From assembly GCA_031459385.1 (NCBI GenBank), contig JAVKIP010000002.1, forward strand, positions 128,355-192,354: 64,000 nt of DNA, given 5' to 3'. Positions 21,401 to 30,400 of this stretch are shown here, one piece after another; the first letter of the stretch is position 1, and every line of letters begins with the position of its first letter. Position numbers: made by a program. Source of the DNA: Candidatus Fervidifonticultor secundus. GTDB lineage: Bacteria; Sysuimicrobiota; Sysuimicrobiia; Sysuimicrobiales; Humicultoraceae.

Positions 21401-24400
21401 CGGCCGCATGCGTCCCGAGGCCCTGGACGTCCTGGAGCACACCGCGTGCCCCGGTGCCGGGGCCTGCGGCGGGCTCTACACGGCCAACACCATGGCCGCG
21501 GCGGCCGAGGCGCTGGGCATGATGCTGCCGGGAGTTGCGTCGATCCCGGCCCTGGATCCCCGGCGACCGGAGGCCTGCCGGCGCACGGGGGCGGCCGTCA
21601 TGCGGCTGCTGCAGGAAGGCATACGGCCGCGCGACATCCTGACCAGGCAGGCGTTCGAGAACGCCATTCGCGTCGTGGTCGCCATGGGGGGCAGCACCAA
21701 CGCGGTCCTGCACCTGCTGGCGATCGCGCGCGAGGCCGGCGTGCCGCTGGCCCTGGAGGACTTCGACCGGCTCAGCCGCACGACTCCCCACATCGCGGAC
21801 ATGCGGCCGGGCGGGCGCTACGTCATGGCCGACCTGGACCGTGCGGGCGGTGTGCCCGTGGTGATGCGCGGGTTGCTGGATGCGGGGCTGCTCCATGGCG
21901 ACTGCATGACGGTCTCCGGCCGCACCGTGCGCGAGAACCTCGAGGGCACGCCGCCGGTCGCCGAGCCCGTGGTGGTCCCCGTCACCCGTCCCCTGGAGCC
22001 GGAGGGCGGTCTGGCCATCCTCACCGGCACGCTGGCACCCGAGGGCGCCGTCATCAAGACCGCGGGCGTACTCCAGAAGACGCACCGCGGTCCGGCCCGC
22101 GTCTTCGATCGCGAGGAGGATGCCTTCAGCGCCGTCGTGGCCGGGCGGATCCAGGCCGGGGACGTCGTCGTCATCCGCTATGAAGGGCCGAAAGGTGGCC
22201 CCGGGATGCGGGAGATGCTGGCGGTGACAGCGGTGCTGATGGGCAAGGGCCTCGGTCCCCATGTGGCGCTCGTCACCGACGGACGCTTCTCGGGCGCCAC
22301 CCACGGGCTGATGGTGGGCCACGTCGCCCCCGAAGCCGCTGCCGGGGGACCCCTGGCGCTCGTGCAGGACGGGGACGTCATCGCTGTTGACATCCCGGCG
22401 CGGCGCCTCGACCTCGAAGTCCCGTCCGACGAGCTGGCGCGGCGCCGGGCGGCGTGGACGGCGCCGCCGCCCCGCTACAGGCATGGGGCCCTGGCCAAGT
22501 ACGCGCGCCTGGTGACCTCTGCGTCCCTCGGTGCTGTCTGCGGCTGACGCGGTCCTCCCGGAGAACACGACCCGGCCGGCGCACGTACCATGAGGAGGAG
22601 ACCCGAGATCGTCGGACCGACAGGAGGGCACTCGACCATGCGCGGGCGACACCTGGTGGCACTCGTTGCGACCCTGGCGCTCGTTGGCGCCGCCCCGGTG
22701 GCCTACGGCCAGGACATCTTCGGCATCATCAAGACCCTCGGCGTCGCATACGCGGTGCGCACGTTCGCACCGCAGATCAACAACTTTATCAACGACCTCC
22801 TGCAAAACCGCGGGGTGGCGGTGCGGGAGCAGACCAAGGTCGTGCCCATCCTGAGCATCGCCATCGGCGTGGGCAACCCGGGCGGAGCCTACATCGGAGC
22901 GGCCCAGGTCTCAGGGCCGGCGGCCGCCGTCGCCCGGGTCGAGGCGGTGGCGCTCCTGGAGGCGGATTTCCAGACCGCGTTCCGGATCAAGGCGTACGTG
23001 CCGGTGGACAATCTGAAGCCGTGGGAGGCCTTCCGCCGCGTGCCGGGCGTCGGCGTCTCGGCCATCATCGATCTGCGGATCTGATCCGTTTGGGCGGCCC
23101 GGCGCGGGCATGACGCCCCAGCGGCGGTGGCGGAGGGCCCTGGGAATCGAACCCAGCCCGGACCGAGCAGGCCCAGCGACCGGTTTTGAAGACCGGGGCC
23201 CGCACCAGCGGACACTGCCCTCCCCGCACAGCCGGCGCTGCACGAGCATTGTACGGGGCGCATCCCGCGCACGCAAGGCAGCCGCGATGGTGGCTCTGGC
23301 CGCGCTGGTCAGCGGCGTGGACACCGCGCGGCCCGCTGCGGGTGGGGCGCCCTGCGTCATCGTGGAAGGCACGGGCATCGGTACCCTCCGGATTGGGCAG
23401 AGAGTCGCCGAGGCGCTCGCCGCCGCCGGCGGCGTCACGCAAGAGCGCCCCGCGGGCCGCGAGACGCTCTATACCCTGCGCGCGCCGTGGGCGGAACTGG
23501 CGGTCGTCGGTGGCCGCGTCGAGCGCATCTCGACGCGGTCCCGCGAGTGCCGCACGGCCCGGGGACTTGGCGTGGGCTCATCGGCGGCAGCCGTGCGGGC
23601 AGCGTACGCCAGTGAGCCGGCCAGCGTGGTGGTTGCGGTGGCGGGCGGCGACCTGTTGAGCTACCCGTTCGCCGGCATTCGTTTCCTCCTCAGCGGCGAC
23701 CGGGTTGTGGCCGTCGAGGTCCTGCCGGCGGAGCGGCTGAGTCGTACTCCCTCCACCCCGACCCCGGCAGCCACGGCGACACCGGGGGCGCCGGGTGTGG
23801 CGTCGCCCGCGGCCACGGGCTGGACGCTTGGACGGCTCTCGGCTACGGTCGACAACCTGATCCTCGTGGTCTCGGGCGTCGTGACCAACCGCGGCCGCGC
23901 CCAGGCCGCCTACGCCGAGGTGCGGGCGCTGGGTCCGGACGGGGTGCCCGTCGCCCAGGGAGATGCGCCCCTGGTGCCCACGCCCGTGCCTGCCGGCGGC
24001 ACCGCTACGTTCGAAGTCCGGCTCGCGATCGACACCGTGGTGCGGCGGTATGTCGTGACGATCCGACCGGCCGGGTCGCTCACGGCATCGCTGGCCGATG
24101 CGGCAGGCGAGATCACGAACCTGCAGCAGTTCGCAGGCATCGTGGCCCGACAGCTCCAGATCGCGGTCGCCGTCCAGGCGACCCCCCCGACGGGCGACGA
24201 CTTCCTGGTGGTAGTCACCAACGGCAGCGGCGTCGTGGTCGCGAGCGTCGCGGTCGCCGCCGAAGTGACGGTGACGTGTCGCATCGCGGTGCCGACACCG
24301 CGTATCATTCAGGAGGTGCGTACAGGCAGCGCGGTCGTGGTGCAGATCCGGCCCGGGGGACAGGGCCGGGCCCCGCTGCCGCTATCGCCCGGGGCTTGCG

Positions 24401-27400: not shown

Positions 27401-30400
27401 CTGCGCAGGCGGCGAGCCCATTCGGCTGCCGGGGTCTGGGTCGGCTGCACCGCCACGGCATAGGATGGGATCGGCACGTCGGGCAACGCCCCCCCGCCCA
27501 TCTCGCCCTGCGTGGGGACGACGCTCACGCGGGCAGATGGACCGCACACGCGCGCCAGGGCCCGGGCCAGCGTCGTCGCCCGGCGGCGCCGGCGCGAGAG
27601 GGACGTCGCCAGCATCGCCAGCACCGGGATCTCCCGCCAGGCCTGTGCCGGATCCAGGTAGGCGCGCAGCGTCGCGGCCAGCGCAGCCAGGCTGAGCTTG
27701 TCGAGACGCACGGCGCGCGCCAGGGGATGGCGACGGCACCGCTCGACTGCCTCCCGCCGTCCCACCAGCACACCGGCCTGCGGGCCGCCAAGCAACTTGT
27801 CGGCGGAGAAGAGCACCAGATCGGCGCCCGCGGCCACCGCGGTCTGTACCGTCGGTTCCTGTGGCAGGCCGACCGTCCGCAGGTCCACGAGGCACCCGCT
27901 GCCCAGGTCGTAGACCACCGGCACTCCCCGCTGCCGGCCCAGCGCCACCAGTTCGTCGAGGGCCGTCTCGTGCACAAAGCCGCGGACGGTGAAGTTGCTC
28001 CGGTGCACCTTCAGCAGCACGCCGGTCGCCGGGCTCAGTGCGGCTTCGTAGTCGGCCCGATAGGTACGGTTGGTGGTGCCGACCTCCACCAGCCGGGCAC
28101 CGCTCTGTGCCATCACGGCCGGCATCCGAAAGCTTCCGCCGATCTCCACCAGTTCGCCCCGGCTGACCACGGCCTCCCGGCCGGCGCTCAGGGCTGCGAG
28201 CGCCAGCGTCACGGCCGAGGCGTTGTTGTTGACCGCGAAGCCGGCTTCGGCGCCGGTCGTGGCGCGCAGCAGGTCCTCCAGGTGCGCATGGCGGTTTCCC
28301 CGCCCCCCGCTGTCCAGGTCGATCTCCAGCGTGGCATAACCGAGCATTGTCTGGACCACGGCCAGGCGGGCAGCTTCGGACAGGGGAGCCCGCCCGAGGT
28401 TCGTGTGCAGCACGATGCCGGTGGCGTTGATCGCAGGCCGCAGGGAGCCGCCGAACTGGCGGTCGAGGCGAGCGGCCACCTCTGCGATCAGGCCGTCCAC
28501 CGAGACGCTGGCCTCGCCGCCTGCACGCAGGCGTCTGCGCACGGCATCGAGCGTCTCGCGCGCGCAGAGCGTCGCTGCCCGGCGCGGCAGGCCCGCCAGC
28601 TGCCCACGGGCCTGCAGGGCGCCCACCAGCCGGTCAACCGACGGGAGCCGCCGGAGCGCGGCGCGGGGGTCGTCCATCGTCGCGTGCCCGCCTACCGCAG
28701 CAGGCTTCCCAACACGAGGGCGCCGGTCGCCACGATTACCGTCACCACTCCCAGCCGGACCAGATCGGCTCGCAGCCATCGCATGAGCTCCTCGGGCCGA
28801 TCGGTCACCGCCACCGGGCCGCTCGTCGCCCGCAGCCGTGTCCCACACCGTGTGCAGACGATCTTGCCTGCAGGGTTCTCTGTACCGCATCGCTGGCAGC
28901 GCATCTTCCGGCTCCTCTCGTCCGACGGATCGGCGCCGCCCGAATCGCGCCTACTCGGTGGCCAGGGCGAGATCGGGGGGCTGCTCGACCGGTTGGCGAC
29001 GCGCGGCGGCCTCGCGCAGCGGCGGAATCAGGATCTCGGGCACGTACTGGCTGCCCACCGCCACGCGCGTGGCGATCTCGCCGCCGTGGAAGTCGGTCCC
29101 GCCGGTCATCAGCAGGCCGTACCGTGCTGCCACGGCCGCATAGCGCTCGACCTGCGCCGGGCTGTGGTCGGGGTAGTACACCTCGATGCCGTCCAGGCCG
29201 GCCGCGACCAGGTCGGGCACGAGCGCGTCGTTGTCTCCCCACCCGGGATGGGCCAGCACCGCCAGCCCGCCGGCAGCCCTGATCACGTGTACTGCCTCCG
29301 GGGGGCTGATCTTCACGCGCTCGACGTAGGCGGGCCCGGCTCGCCCGATGTACCGGTCGAACGCTTCGGCGACGTCCCGGACGTGCCCCGCCTCGACCAG
29401 CGCCCGCGCGACGTGCGGCCGGCCGACGGCGCCGCCTGCGGCCAGCGCGGCGACGCGCTCGAACGACACCGGCGCGCCCAGGGCCGCCAGGCGCTCCACC
29501 ATCCGTCGTGCACGCTCGGTGCGCCCGGCGCGCAGCCGGTTCAGCAGGTCCTGGAACCACGCCAGCCGATGGTGCACGAAGTACCCGAGCACATGCACCT
29601 CGCCAGCCGGCACGTCGCACGAGAGCTCCACGCCAGGCCATACCTCCAGGCTCAGCGCCCGGCCCGCATCCATCGCGGCGTCGACGCCCGCGGTGGTATC
29701 GTGGTCGGTGACGGCCAGCAGGCCGACGTCCCGCGCGCGCGCCTCGGCCACCAGCGCCGCCGGCTCGAGCAGCCCGTCCGACGCGGTGGTGTGCGTGTGC
29801 AGGTCGATGCGCACTAGTCCTCCTCGACCACCTGGAGGCGCCGGATGGAGGTCGCGTGGCCGGCCTCTGTAATCTCCACCACCACGGCGTTGAGCTGCAC
29901 GGGACCCGGCGCCACCTCGAATCGCACCGGGAGCTGGGTCAGGAACCGCTCGAGGATGCTCTCGCGGGCCATGCCGATGATCCCATCGCGCGGCCCGGTC
30001 ATGCCCACGTCGGTGATATAGGCGGTACCGCCGGGCAGCACGCGCTCGTCCGCTGTCTGCACATGGGTGTGGGTGCCGACGACGGCGCTCACGCGGCCGT
30101 CCAGGTACCAGCCCATCGCCACTTTCTCCGACGTCGCCTCGGCGTGAAAGTCGACGATGATCGCCGGCGTCACTGCCCGCAGGCGGGCCGCCTCTTCGCG
30201 GGCGATGCGGAAGGGATCGTCGAGCGCCTGCATGAACACGCGGCCCTCCAGGTTCAGCACCCCGAGGGCGGTCCCGTCCGCCAGGCGCACGACGGCGGCG
30301 CCACGGCCCGGCACACCCGCCGGGTAGTTGGCCGGCCGGAACACGCGGGGATCGCTGTCCAGCAGCGCGTAGGCCTCCCGGTTCTTCCAGATGTGGTTGC

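What a model noticed while it worked through the whole genome (the two positions that open the first line are those of the whole stretch)
23128..28677. A selenoproteome of at least 14 genes in Sysuimicrobiota, all split or truncated by the gene caller
The full Sec machinery is present (tRNA-Sec C12:151482-151577, selB g01308, selA g01309, selD) with at least 14 selenoprotein genes, none of them called whole. Five genes belong to four new families (reported separately). The other nine belong to known Sec families: SelD C1:103936-104982(-); PDO/TIGR02187 C8:25280-25990 (T-U-PHC); Grx/NrdH-like C15:11294-11527(-) (G-U-LFC); deiodinase/Prx-like C36:4583-5332 (T-U-PYC); AhpD/YciW-like C9:69493-70152(-) (CEY-U); DsrE-like C3:~1815-2177 (V-U-GGC, frameshifted here); OsmC C45:16750-17220 (G-U-LTGT); a second OsmC C12:12878-13324(-) with U at the C-P cysteine; ArsM C56:125399-126222 (AG-U-LSG, frameshifted here). 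Selenium use has not been describe [...]
Evidence so far: TGA screens. The read-through proteins hit PDO_seleno_TRX 2e-67, Glutaredoxin 3e-15, deiodinase_rel 3e-17, YciW-related (seleno)protein 5e-15, DsrE 5e-9, OsmC 3e-15 and arsenite methyltransferase 8e-28. Hairpins follow each UGA. The ArsM TGA is kept in 12 of 12 orthologs found. The second OsmC TGA is kept in G001. DsrE frames were read in call 137. Neither phylum paper has a word starting with 'selen' in its main text.
(Added by a program. Inside this text positions count along the whole contig: contig position 128,355 is position 1 of the stretch shown here. "Call 12" and the like, gene names such as g00115 and contig names such as C1 are that model's own, and its searches are not shown. 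The text may have been shortened before it was handed on; [...] marks where a part breaks off. The agent that wrote the report below was given it as the finding of a first reader that could run no searches.)

Follow-up and report, generated by a model that had tools for sequence, protein, structure and literature searches.

The report
Selenocysteine system with fourteen selenoprotein genes
This bacterium from the little-studied phylum CSP1-3 (Sysuimicrobiota) carries the standard genes for reading UGA as selenocysteine and about fourteen genes that use it, all cut short by ordinary gene callers; it is a sound annotation finding built from known parts, not a new mechanism.

Summary
Confirmed. 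The window holds tRNA-Sec (23128-23223, -), selB (25358-27277, -) and selA (27274-28677, -). SelD lies elsewhere and is itself a selenoprotein.

My own genome-wide TGA screen found the nine plus five more: two LMW-type ArsC, an M20 amidohydrolase, a CooC-like ATPase and a DUF411 protein. That gives 14. One further candidate, a solute-binding protein, is a TGG>TGA nonsense change.

- **Conservation:** the TGA is kept in relatives, for example PDO in 51 genomes, ArsM in 21 of 23 orthologs and OsmC1 in 14 of 14.
- **SECIS:** 8 of 9 sites have a SECIS-type hairpin, against 16% of control codons. The PDO hairpin shows compensatory changes.
- **Spread in the phylum:** selB is over its cut-off in 72 of 94 genomes and tRNA-Sec is strong in 73 of 94.
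- **Composition:** no molybdopterin enzyme carries a stop, so there is no Sec formate dehydrogenase.
- **Frameshifts:** ArsM and the DsrE-like gene are frameshifted at G5 runs. The ArsM shift recurs in contigs of four runs.

All nine families and the machinery are already known kinds. Neither phylum paper mentions selenium in its main text. I rate it a new member of a known kind, of moderate interest.

The parts
23128..23223 (-). tRNA-Sec (selC), anticodon UCA
   Evidence: ARAGORN tRNA-SeC. Rfam RF01852 64.5 bits against gathering 47, model 1-91 of 91. It is the only tRNA in the window.
25358..27277 (-). selB, selenocysteine-specific elongation factor, 639 aa
   Evidence: TIGR00475 2.7e-110, 369.7 bits against cut-off 242.25, profile 1-579 of 581. 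The same family is over its cut-off in 72 of 94 genomes of the phylum.
27274..28677 (-). selA, L-seryl-tRNA(Sec) selenium transferase; its stop overlaps the selB start
   Evidence: TIGR00474 1.3e-164, 548.4 bits against cut-off 267.9, match from residue 79 of the 538-aa ORF 27274-28890. Single copy in the genome. The start at 28677 is inferred.

Best explanation
This is an ordinary bacterial selenocysteine-decoding system that is in use.

How it works. SelD, itself made with Sec at residue 18, makes selenophosphate. SelA converts Ser-tRNA(Sec) to Sec-tRNA(Sec). SelB carries that tRNA to UGA codons that are followed about 20-30 nt downstream by a short G+C-rich hairpin with a G in its loop (a bacterial SECIS).

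Where it is used. Fourteen genes of this genome have such a UGA at the position of a catalytic, resolving or metal/metalloid-binding cysteine. Twelve are intact:
- SelD
- a PDO/AhpF-N-like thioredoxin-fold protein
- a glutaredoxin-like protein
- a deiodinase/Prx-like protein
- an AhpD/CMD-like protein
- two OsmC proteins
- two LMW-type ArsC proteins
- an M20 amidohydrolase
- a CooC-like ATPase
- a DUF411 protein

Two, ArsM and a DsrE-like gene, are frameshifted in this strain.

Wider picture. The trait is widespread in the phylum and looks ancestral, with loss in a few lineages. There is no Sec formate dehydrogenase, and no selenouridine synthase was detected, so the detected selenium use serves thiol-type redox and metal(loid) chemistry.

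Shown versus inferred. The genes, the conserved TGAs, the hairpins and the co-loss pattern are shown. Actual Sec insertion, the functions of the individual proteins and their starts are inferred from homology.
For: - **Machinery:**
- **TGA is the normal stop:** it ends 1179 of 2226 long high-GC3 ORFs, 53%, so the code is not reassigned.
- **TGA kept in relatives:**
  - PDO: the 51 best matches, from 51 genomes at 51-100% identity, all hold a TGA. It sits at T-U-P-H/Q-C in 30 of 30 loci read.
  - SelD: 5 of 5 genomes, plus G080 and G089.
  - Grx: 3 of 3 found in 5 genomes.
  - Dio-like: 13 of 13 matches in 12 of 94 genomes.
  - ArsM: 21 of 23 non-self full-length orthologs, and 10 of 11 in a second clade.
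  - OsmC1: 14 of 14 full-length matches in 34 genomes.
  - AhpD-like: 4 of 4 full-length.
  - DsrE-like: 3 of 3.
  - OsmC2: G000, G001 and G002. The 17 codons after the TGA stay in frame, with 3 synonymous changes and 2 amino-acid changes (N to D, Q to E).
  - Extra genes: LMW-ArsC 5 of 5, and M20D, CooC-like and DUF411 each 2 of 2.
- **SECIS:** uninterrupted stems of at least 6 bp, with G in the first two loop bases and the loop starting at +18 to +32, occur at 8 of 9 claimed sites. The same rule is met at 15.8% of 5680 Cys codons and 15.5% of 6000 random codons.
- **PDO hairpin:** pair 18-36 is GC in 14 sequences, CG in 12, UA in 1 and GU in 1. The covariation score is 0.121 against 0.037 in shuffles (0 of 500 reach it) and at most 0.038 when slid.
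- **After the ArsM TGA:** about 50 nt are identical between G000 and G001, against 89% identity overall.
- **Cys counterpart and co-loss:** G084 ArsM has TGC at the site. G085, G086 and G087 lack a SelD ortholog, selB over its cut-off and a tRNA-Sec of 60 bits or more.
- **Not contamination:** the same-genus genome G001 (97% complete, 4 contigs) holds orthologs of SelD, PDO, Grx, OsmC1, OsmC2, ArsM, M20D, CooC-like, DUF411 and LMW-ArsC, all on its contig C1.
Against: - There is no protein or selenium-labelling evidence, and no RNA run holding the locus was listed.
- SelD (stem of 4 by my strict rule, only a bulged hairpin of -15.1 kcal/mol with its loop near +35), the C33 LMW-ArsC (3) and the CooC-like gene (5) lack a hairpin that beats the background.
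- Two of the 14 were partly picked by the hairpin rule, so their stems are not independent support.
- ArsM carries a 1-nt deletion in a G5 run. It recurs with no gap in contigs of four runs of one study, one of which may be the source. The DsrE-like gene has an extra G in a G5 run that I did not check in reads. The working set here is therefore 12, perhaps 13.
- OsmC2, M20D, CooC-like and DUF411 are supported only by same-genus genomes at 66-90% identity.
- The Dio-like, AhpD-like and DsrE-like genes are absent from the near-complete G001, so they are accessory.
- G000 is rated 5.5% contaminated.
Confidence: 0.9

Rival explanations
1. The in-frame TGAs are real stops. The genes are pseudogenes or naturally truncated proteins, and the Sec machinery serves only one or two targets.
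For: One TGA of this kind does exist. The solute-binding protein at C58:25078 has TGA where 3 of 3 orthologs have TGG, and it has no hairpin. ArsM and the DsrE-like gene are frameshifted here. Some sites are supported only within the genus.
Against: - TGAs are kept at the same codon over 43-90% protein identity, with the downstream part still conserved as protein.
- Every site falls on a Cys-type active-site position.
- Hairpins are enriched, 8 of 9 against 16%, and the PDO hairpin covaries.
- Cys forms appear where the machinery is missing.
Confidence: 0.03
2. The bin is mixed. The machinery and the UGA-containing genes come from different organisms, so there is no 14-gene selenoproteome in one cell.
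For: G000 is rated 5.5% contaminated and has 59 contigs. The Dio-like gene and one LMW-ArsC lie on 11-13 kb contigs, C36 and C33. The C33 copy is closer to a g2 genome (72%) than to same-genus genomes (63-64%).
Against: - G001, same genus with 4 contigs, has selB, tRNA-Sec and ten of the genes on one contig.
- G002 has the Dio-like and AhpD-like genes at 83-84% identity.
- All contigs have 68-74% G+C.
Confidence: 0.04
3. UGA is read through at these sites by something other than Sec, such as near-cognate Trp or Cys insertion or a partial code change.
For: One public gene call of an OsmC1 relative shows W at the site, which is consistent with a caller that read TGA as Trp. No selenium data exist.
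Against: - TGA ends 53% of long ORFs.
- A complete and conserved selA-selB-selC-selD set is present.
- Sites align with Cys, not Trp. The one TGG>TGA site has no hairpin.
- Genomes without the machinery lack the TGA in ArsM; the one read (G084) has TGC.
Confidence: 0.03

Closest known systems
Bacterial Sec-decoding system of the E. coli type (selA, selB, selC, selD plus a SECIS hairpin directly after UGA)
   Same: All four components are present with full-length matches to the curated models. selA and selB overlap as an operon. Hairpins with a G in the loop lie about 20-30 nt after the UGA.
   Different: - No formate dehydrogenase target: 6 molybdopterin matches, none with a stop.
- No selenouridine synthase detected.
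- In this genus tRNA-Sec lies about 2.1 kb from selB, with two opposite-strand ORFs between. In family f5 it lies about 40 nt after selB.
Known prokaryotic selenoprotein families listed in the 2026 review PMC13188914 (Table 1, passages read)
   Same: The nine claimed genes fall in listed families with matching motifs (sequences):
- SelD, TIGR00476, UxxK
- AhpF-N homolog, TIGR02187, UxxC (T-U-PHC)
- Grx, PF00462, UxxC (U-LFC)
- deiodinase-like, PF00837, UxxC (U-PYC)
- CMD-like, PF02627, CxxU (CEY-U)
- DsrE-like, PF02635, UxxC (U-GGC)
- OsmC-like, PF02566
- ArsM, NF008823, UxxG (U-LSG)
   Different: - OsmC2 has Sec at the C-terminal C-P cysteine, not at the listed UxxT site. OsmC1 reads U-L-T-G-T.
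- Several genes score below the curated cut-offs of the named NCBIfam selenoprotein models.
- The five extra genes belong to Pfam families PF01451, PF01546, PF01656 and PF04214. None of these accessions occurs in the review's text.
Selenoprotein-rich anaerobes (Thermodesulfobacteriota, Synergistota, Clostridia; up to 57-63 genes) as described in PMC13188914 and BSepDB PMC13326102 (passages read)
   Same: The selenoproteome has many genes and is dominated by thioredoxin-fold and other thiol-type proteins.
   Different: It is much smaller, at 14 genes. It lacks FdhA, which those sources call the most widespread bacterial selenoprotein. The genome has 72% G+C, and its phylum is described as facultatively anaerobic (abstract of PMC11604079).

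Membership tests
Bacterial Sec-decoding trait | tRNA-Sec with UCA anticodon | tested here: met
   ARAGORN SeC (tca); Rfam 64.5 bits against 47.
Bacterial Sec-decoding trait | SelB, SelA and SelD over the curated cut-offs | tested here: met
   369.7 against 242; 548.4 against 268; 394.4 against 125 bits.
Bacterial Sec-decoding trait | SECIS hairpin directly downstream of the Sec UGA | tested here: met
   8 of 9 claimed sites have a stem of at least 6 bp, against about 16% of control codons; covariation in the PDO hairpin. SelD, one LMW-ArsC and the CooC-like gene do not beat the background.
Bacterial Sec-decoding trait | UGA aligned with Cys in homologs | tested here: met
   G084 ArsM has TGC. 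PDO and CooC-like relatives without a stop.
Bacterial Sec-decoding trait | Selenium actually incorporated into the proteins | not testable with these tools
   No proteomic or labelling data. No RNA holder was listed.
TIGR02187 PDO_seleno_TRX | Whole-protein score over the curated cut-off; UxxC in the second thioredoxin-like half | tested here: met
   226.6 bits against 185, profile 2-208 of 209; T-U-PHC.
TIGR00476 SelD | Score over the cut-off; Sec or Cys in the N-terminal G-x-G-(C/U)-x-x-K loop | tested here: met
   394.4 bits; ACAG-U-ASK at residue 18.
NF038285 deiodinase_rel / PF00837 T4_deiodinase | Score over the curated cut-off | tested here: not met
   63 bits against 250 for NF038285. 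PF00837 gives 31.3 against 27, but Redoxin (33.7) and AhpC-TSA (33.2) score the same. It is best called a thioredoxin-fold UxxC protein.
NF053654 YciW-related (seleno)protein / PF02627 CMD | Score over the curated cut-off; CxxU | tested here: inconclusive
   55.6 bits against 310, not met. CMD gives 29.8 against 23, met. The motif C-E-Y-U is present.
PF02566 OsmC / NF041052 OsmC-related (seleno)protein | Pfam score over gathering; NCBIfam selenoprotein model over its cut-off | tested here: inconclusive
   56.8 and 44.3 bits against 27.5, met. NF041052 gives 22.2 and 32.2 against 95, not met.
PF00462 Glutaredoxin / NrdH- and YruB-like | Pfam score over gathering; NCBIfam subfamily over its cut-off | tested here: inconclusive
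   56.5 bits against 22.9, met. YruB gives 68 against 88.6 and NrdH 63.4 against 85.8, not met.
NF008823 arsenite methyltransferase | Full-length match over the cut-off; UxxG at the third As-binding Cys; intact frame | tested here: inconclusive
   the C-terminal 142 aa give 118.3 bits against 263, a partial query. U-LSG is present. The frame is broken in G000 but open over 350 aa in G001 and G002.
PF02635 DsrE-like | Pfam score over gathering; UxxC | tested here: inconclusive
   the intact G006 ortholog gives 47.4 bits against 22.7, with V-U-GGC. The G000 copy is frameshifted, and its C-terminal part alone gives no NCBIfam hit.

The most novel reading that the evidence does not exclude
CSP1-3/Sysuimicrobiota is an ancestrally Sec-using phylum whose selenoproteome is unusual in kind. 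It lacks formate dehydrogenase and centres on thiol, peroxide and metal(loid) chemistry. It also holds Sec forms of families that have no described selenoprotein member:
- thioredoxin-type LMW ArsC with Sec at the catalytic P-loop Cys
- an M20D amidohydrolase with Sec at the metal-ligand Cys of the MHACGHD motif
- a CooC-like NTPase with a U-x-C metal site
- a DUF411 protein with U-x-C-C
- an OsmC with Sec at the resolving cysteine rather than the peroxidatic one
Probability: 0.5. Interest if true: 0.6.

Novelty: new member of a known kind. Interest (0 to 1): 0.45.

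Why it matters
**Annotation.** At least 14 genes per genome, across most of a 94-species phylum, are truncated or split in public records. The truncated forms are on record for 5 of 5 genes tested. Metabolic reconstructions of this phylum therefore miss or misread its peroxide, disulfide and arsenic enzymes.

**Biology.** The finding implies a selenium requirement, which may bear on attempts to cultivate these so far uncultured bacteria. 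It adds a Sec-using lineage whose targets do not include formate dehydrogenase.

**A natural comparison.** Within the phylum, three genomes have lost SelD, selB and tRNA-Sec. One of them (G087) has an ArsM with no in-frame stop. G084, which also lacks selB and a strong tRNA-Sec, has TGC at the site. This offers a way to study Sec/Cys exchange.

None of this changes how Sec decoding is understood.

Tried and rejected
- **Solute-binding protein, C58:25078.** One SBP_bac_8 domain spans the TGA, but 3 of 3 orthologs at 93-94% identity have TGG, and the stem is only 4 bp. It is a nonsense change or an error, not Sec.
- **Other read-through constructs.** 42 of the 46 extra constructs were adjacent genes or had no family. 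This includes the one candidate inside the window, C12:169980, where the permease domain lies wholly after the TGA.
- **ilvD and the next ORF.** They share a frame across a TGA at window 22545-22547, but ilvD is complete, so this is an ordinary stop.
- **Dio-like gene.** It was not found in five chosen genomes. The phylum-wide search then found it in 12 of 94.
- **Selenouridine synthase TIGR03167.** No match in the genome.
- **Expression.** No RNA holder was listed.
- **Earlier notes of this scan.** Nothing was returned.
- **Literature limits.**
  - The supplements of PMC11604079 could not be read.
  - I searched 12 of 14 supplement files of PMC11962464. The only 'selen' word was xdhD, 'putative selenate reductase'.
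  - BSepDB Table S1 is held only in part (47,278 rows). That part has no 'CSP1-3' or 'Sysuimicrob' label.
  - The groundwater-MAG selenoprotein survey cited in the review (its ref. 66) was not found in the library.
- **Pattern misses.** My motif patterns failed to locate the site in one Dio-like locus (L176) and one OsmC2 locus (L199). For these I rely on the search tables.
- **Gene neighbourhoods.** Around ArsM and both LMW-ArsC genes there is no ArsR, Acr3 or ArsB, so an ars-operon context is not supported.
- **Input error.** One search failed on a structure string one character short and was corrected.

Full report
**What is in the window.** The window is G000:C12:128355-192354.
- Its only tRNA is tRNA-Sec, anticodon UCA, at 23128-23223 on the minus strand.
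- selB (25358-27277, -) and selA (27274-28890 as an ORF, with the family match from residue 79 and a likely start at 28677) match their curated models over full length and overlap by four bases.
- Two plus-strand ORFs with no family lie between tRNA-Sec and selB (about 23300-24459 and 24527-25318). ilvD and a small secreted ORF lie upstream. A PHP-type phosphatase and a TIGR00282 phosphoesterase follow selA.
- selA is single-copy.
- SelD lies on C1 and has TGA at codon 18.

**The nine claimed genes.**
- ArsM lies in two frames that meet near C56:125794. Against G001 this is a one-base deletion inside a run of five G.
- The DsrE-like gene has one extra G in a G5 run compared with the intact 120-aa orthologs of G003 and G006. 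The G006 ortholog matches Pfam DsrE at 2.6e-12.
- Contigs of four coded hot-spring runs from one study (X1 may be the source) cross the ArsM site with no gap and no other letter. That frameshift is therefore a reproducible feature of the population, not a one-off assembly slip. These are contigs, not reads.

**Independent screen.**
1. I scored every in-frame TGA with at least 8 open codons on each side (40,289 sites) by codon log-odds on both sides.
2. All nine claimed sites were among the candidates.
3. Of 46 further read-through constructs sent to Pfam, only four had one domain spanning the TGA: LMW-type ArsC at C33:1410, an M20 amidohydrolase at C34:33404 (MHA-U-GHDGH), a CooC-like ATPase at C23:19458 (GAG-U-MC) and a solute-binding protein at C58:25078.
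4. A second pass that added a hairpin filter gave two more: a second LMW-ArsC at C23:149832 and a DUF411 protein at C14:17096 (PPT-U-ACC). In the DUF411 protein the Pfam domain lies downstream of the U.
5. The solute-binding protein has TGG in 3 of 3 orthologs and is rejected.

**Conservation of the TGA.**

| Gene | Result |
|---|---|
| PDO | The 51 best matches, one per genome, at 51-100% identity, all hold a TGA. It is at T-U-P-H/Q-C in 30 of 30 loci read. Forms without a stop occur in f5, f6 and as paralogs. |
| SelD | 5 of 5 genomes, plus G080 and G089 |
| Grx | 3 of 3 found in five genomes |
| Dio-like | In 12 of 94 genomes, with 13 of 13 matches holding a TGA. Absent from G001 but 83% identical in G002. 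|
| ArsM | 21 of 23 non-self full-length orthologs. G084 (TGC) and G087 have none. A second clade has 10 of 11. |
| OsmC1 | 14 of 14 full-length matches in the family's 34 genomes |
| OsmC2 | G001 and G002. The tail after the TGA stays in frame and ends at a shared second TGA. The search table also shows a split copy in G011 with a TGA, not located by my pattern. |
| AhpD-like | 4 of 4 full-length |
| DsrE-like | 3 of 3 |
| Extra genes | LMW-ArsC 5 of 5. M20D, CooC-like and DUF411 each 2 of 2, same genus only. |

Genomes G016 and G024 are unpublished. They are included in the counts. Without G024 the AhpD-like count is 3 of 3.

**Hairpins.**
- The rule was fixed before looking at controls: an uninterrupted stem, a loop of 3-7 nt with G in its first two bases, and a loop start at +18 to +32.
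- Stems at the claimed sites are PDO 8 bp, Grx 7, Dio-like 8, AhpD-like 8, OsmC1 7, OsmC2 6, ArsM 9, DsrE-like 10 and SelD 4.
- In controls, 15.8% of 5680 in-frame Cys codons and 15.5% of 6000 random codons reach 6 bp.
- So 8 of 9 sites pass where about 1.4 would be expected (my arithmetic).
- M20D has 10 bp, CooC-like 5 and the C33 ArsC 3.
- In 30 PDO orthologs the helix at columns 18-25 with 29-36 is kept. Pair 18-36 switches between GC (14) and CG (12). The covariation score is 0.121, against 0.037 in shuffles (0 of 500 reach it) and at most 0.038 when slid.

**Code and contamination.** TGA ends 53% of long ORFs, so it is not reassigned. Contigs have 68-74% G+C. G001, with 4 contigs, carries the machinery and ten of the genes on one contig.

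**Spread in the phylum.**
- selB is over its cut-off in 72 of 94 genomes.
- tRNA-Sec scores at least 60 bits in 73 of 94 by my count of the table. Weaker hits are cross-matches, and G000 itself has one at 49.5 bits.
- G085, G086 and G087 lack a SelD ortholog, selB over its cut-off and a strong tRNA-Sec. The ArsM of G087, and that of G084, has no in-frame stop; G084 reads TGC there.

**What the selenoproteome lacks.** None of six molybdopterin-enzyme matches has a stop, and no selenouridine synthase was found.

**Identity of the organism.** The closest named SelA relatives are 'Armatimonadetes bacterium CSP1-3' (57%), 'Candidatus Thermofontivivens primus' (59%) and Armatimonadota-labelled MAGs (63-81%). 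This fits CSP1-3/Sysuimicrobiota but is indirect.

**Literature.**
- The two phylum papers have no word starting with 'selen' in their main text (PMC11604079 and PMC11962464, term searches).
- A search for 'CSP1-3' with 'selen' listed four papers, none about Sec by title.
- 'selenoprotein' with 'Armatimonadetes' gave one unrelated paper.
- The 2026 review PMC13188914 (passages read) lists all nine families and none of PF01451, PF01546, PF01656 or PF04214.
- BSepDB (PMC13326102, passages and part of Table S1) reports Sec use in 16,621 species of 88 lineages. Sec use in one more phylum is therefore not surprising in itself.

**Verdict.** It is a real, standard Sec system with a mid-sized selenoproteome that lacks FDH, made of known families plus five genes in families not listed as selenoproteins. 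It is a new member of a known kind.

Noticed in passing
G000:C58:25078 (-), locus L048: An ABC solute-binding protein gene has TGA where three orthologs at 93-94% identity have TGG (Trp). There is no SECIS-like hairpin, so it is probably a nonsense mutation or a base error.
   Followed up: yes
window 23224-25357: tRNA-Sec lies about 2.1 kb from selB, with two plus-strand ORFs of no known family between them (one weak FxLYD hit at 1e-4). The gap is 1.4-2.6 kb in other f1 genomes, about 0.8 kb in f3 g15 and g19, and only about 40-190 nt in f5, f7 and several other f3 genomes, judged from the coordinates.
   Followed up: partly
G000:C56:~125794 and G000:C3:~1990: Both frameshifted selenoprotein genes (ArsM, DsrE-like) are broken at runs of five G. 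The ArsM one recurs in contigs of four runs. The DsrE-like one was not checked.
   Followed up: partly
G000:C56:126284-126850 (+), locus L236:6284-6850: A CMD/AhpD-domain ORF lies directly downstream of the Sec-ArsM gene, and an ECF sigma factor with a zf-HC2 anti-sigma pair lies directly upstream. DUF1326 and a PpoB2 copper chaperone follow. This recalls the fused 'ArsM/AhpD domain selenoprotein' model NF041537, which the ArsM part hits at 8e-25. No ars-operon genes are nearby.
   Followed up: partly
protein P0026 (relative of OsmC1): A public 154-aa gene call of an OsmC1 relative has W at the Sec position, which is consistent with a caller that read TGA as Trp on a 1-kb contig. Other records hold the 64-aa and 85-aa halves.
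   Followed up: partly
G000:C9:69493-69640 (-), tail of the AhpD-like gene: The last 30 or so residues of the 219-aa reading are Ala/Gly/Pro-rich and not conserved. Relatives end at a TGA at about residue 190-205.
   Followed up: partly
window 41248-41889 (C12:169602-170243, -), locus L055: A branched-chain amino-acid permease frame has an in-frame TGA 17 codons before the Pfam domain begins. This is probably an ordinary stop of an upstream ORF or a broken gene, not Sec.
   Followed up: partly
G080 and G080, G089: Two genomes with no selB over the cut-off still have SelD with an in-frame TGA. G080 has a 190-bit match to only the first 137 positions of selB. The 72 of 94 count is therefore a lower bound.
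   Followed up: no
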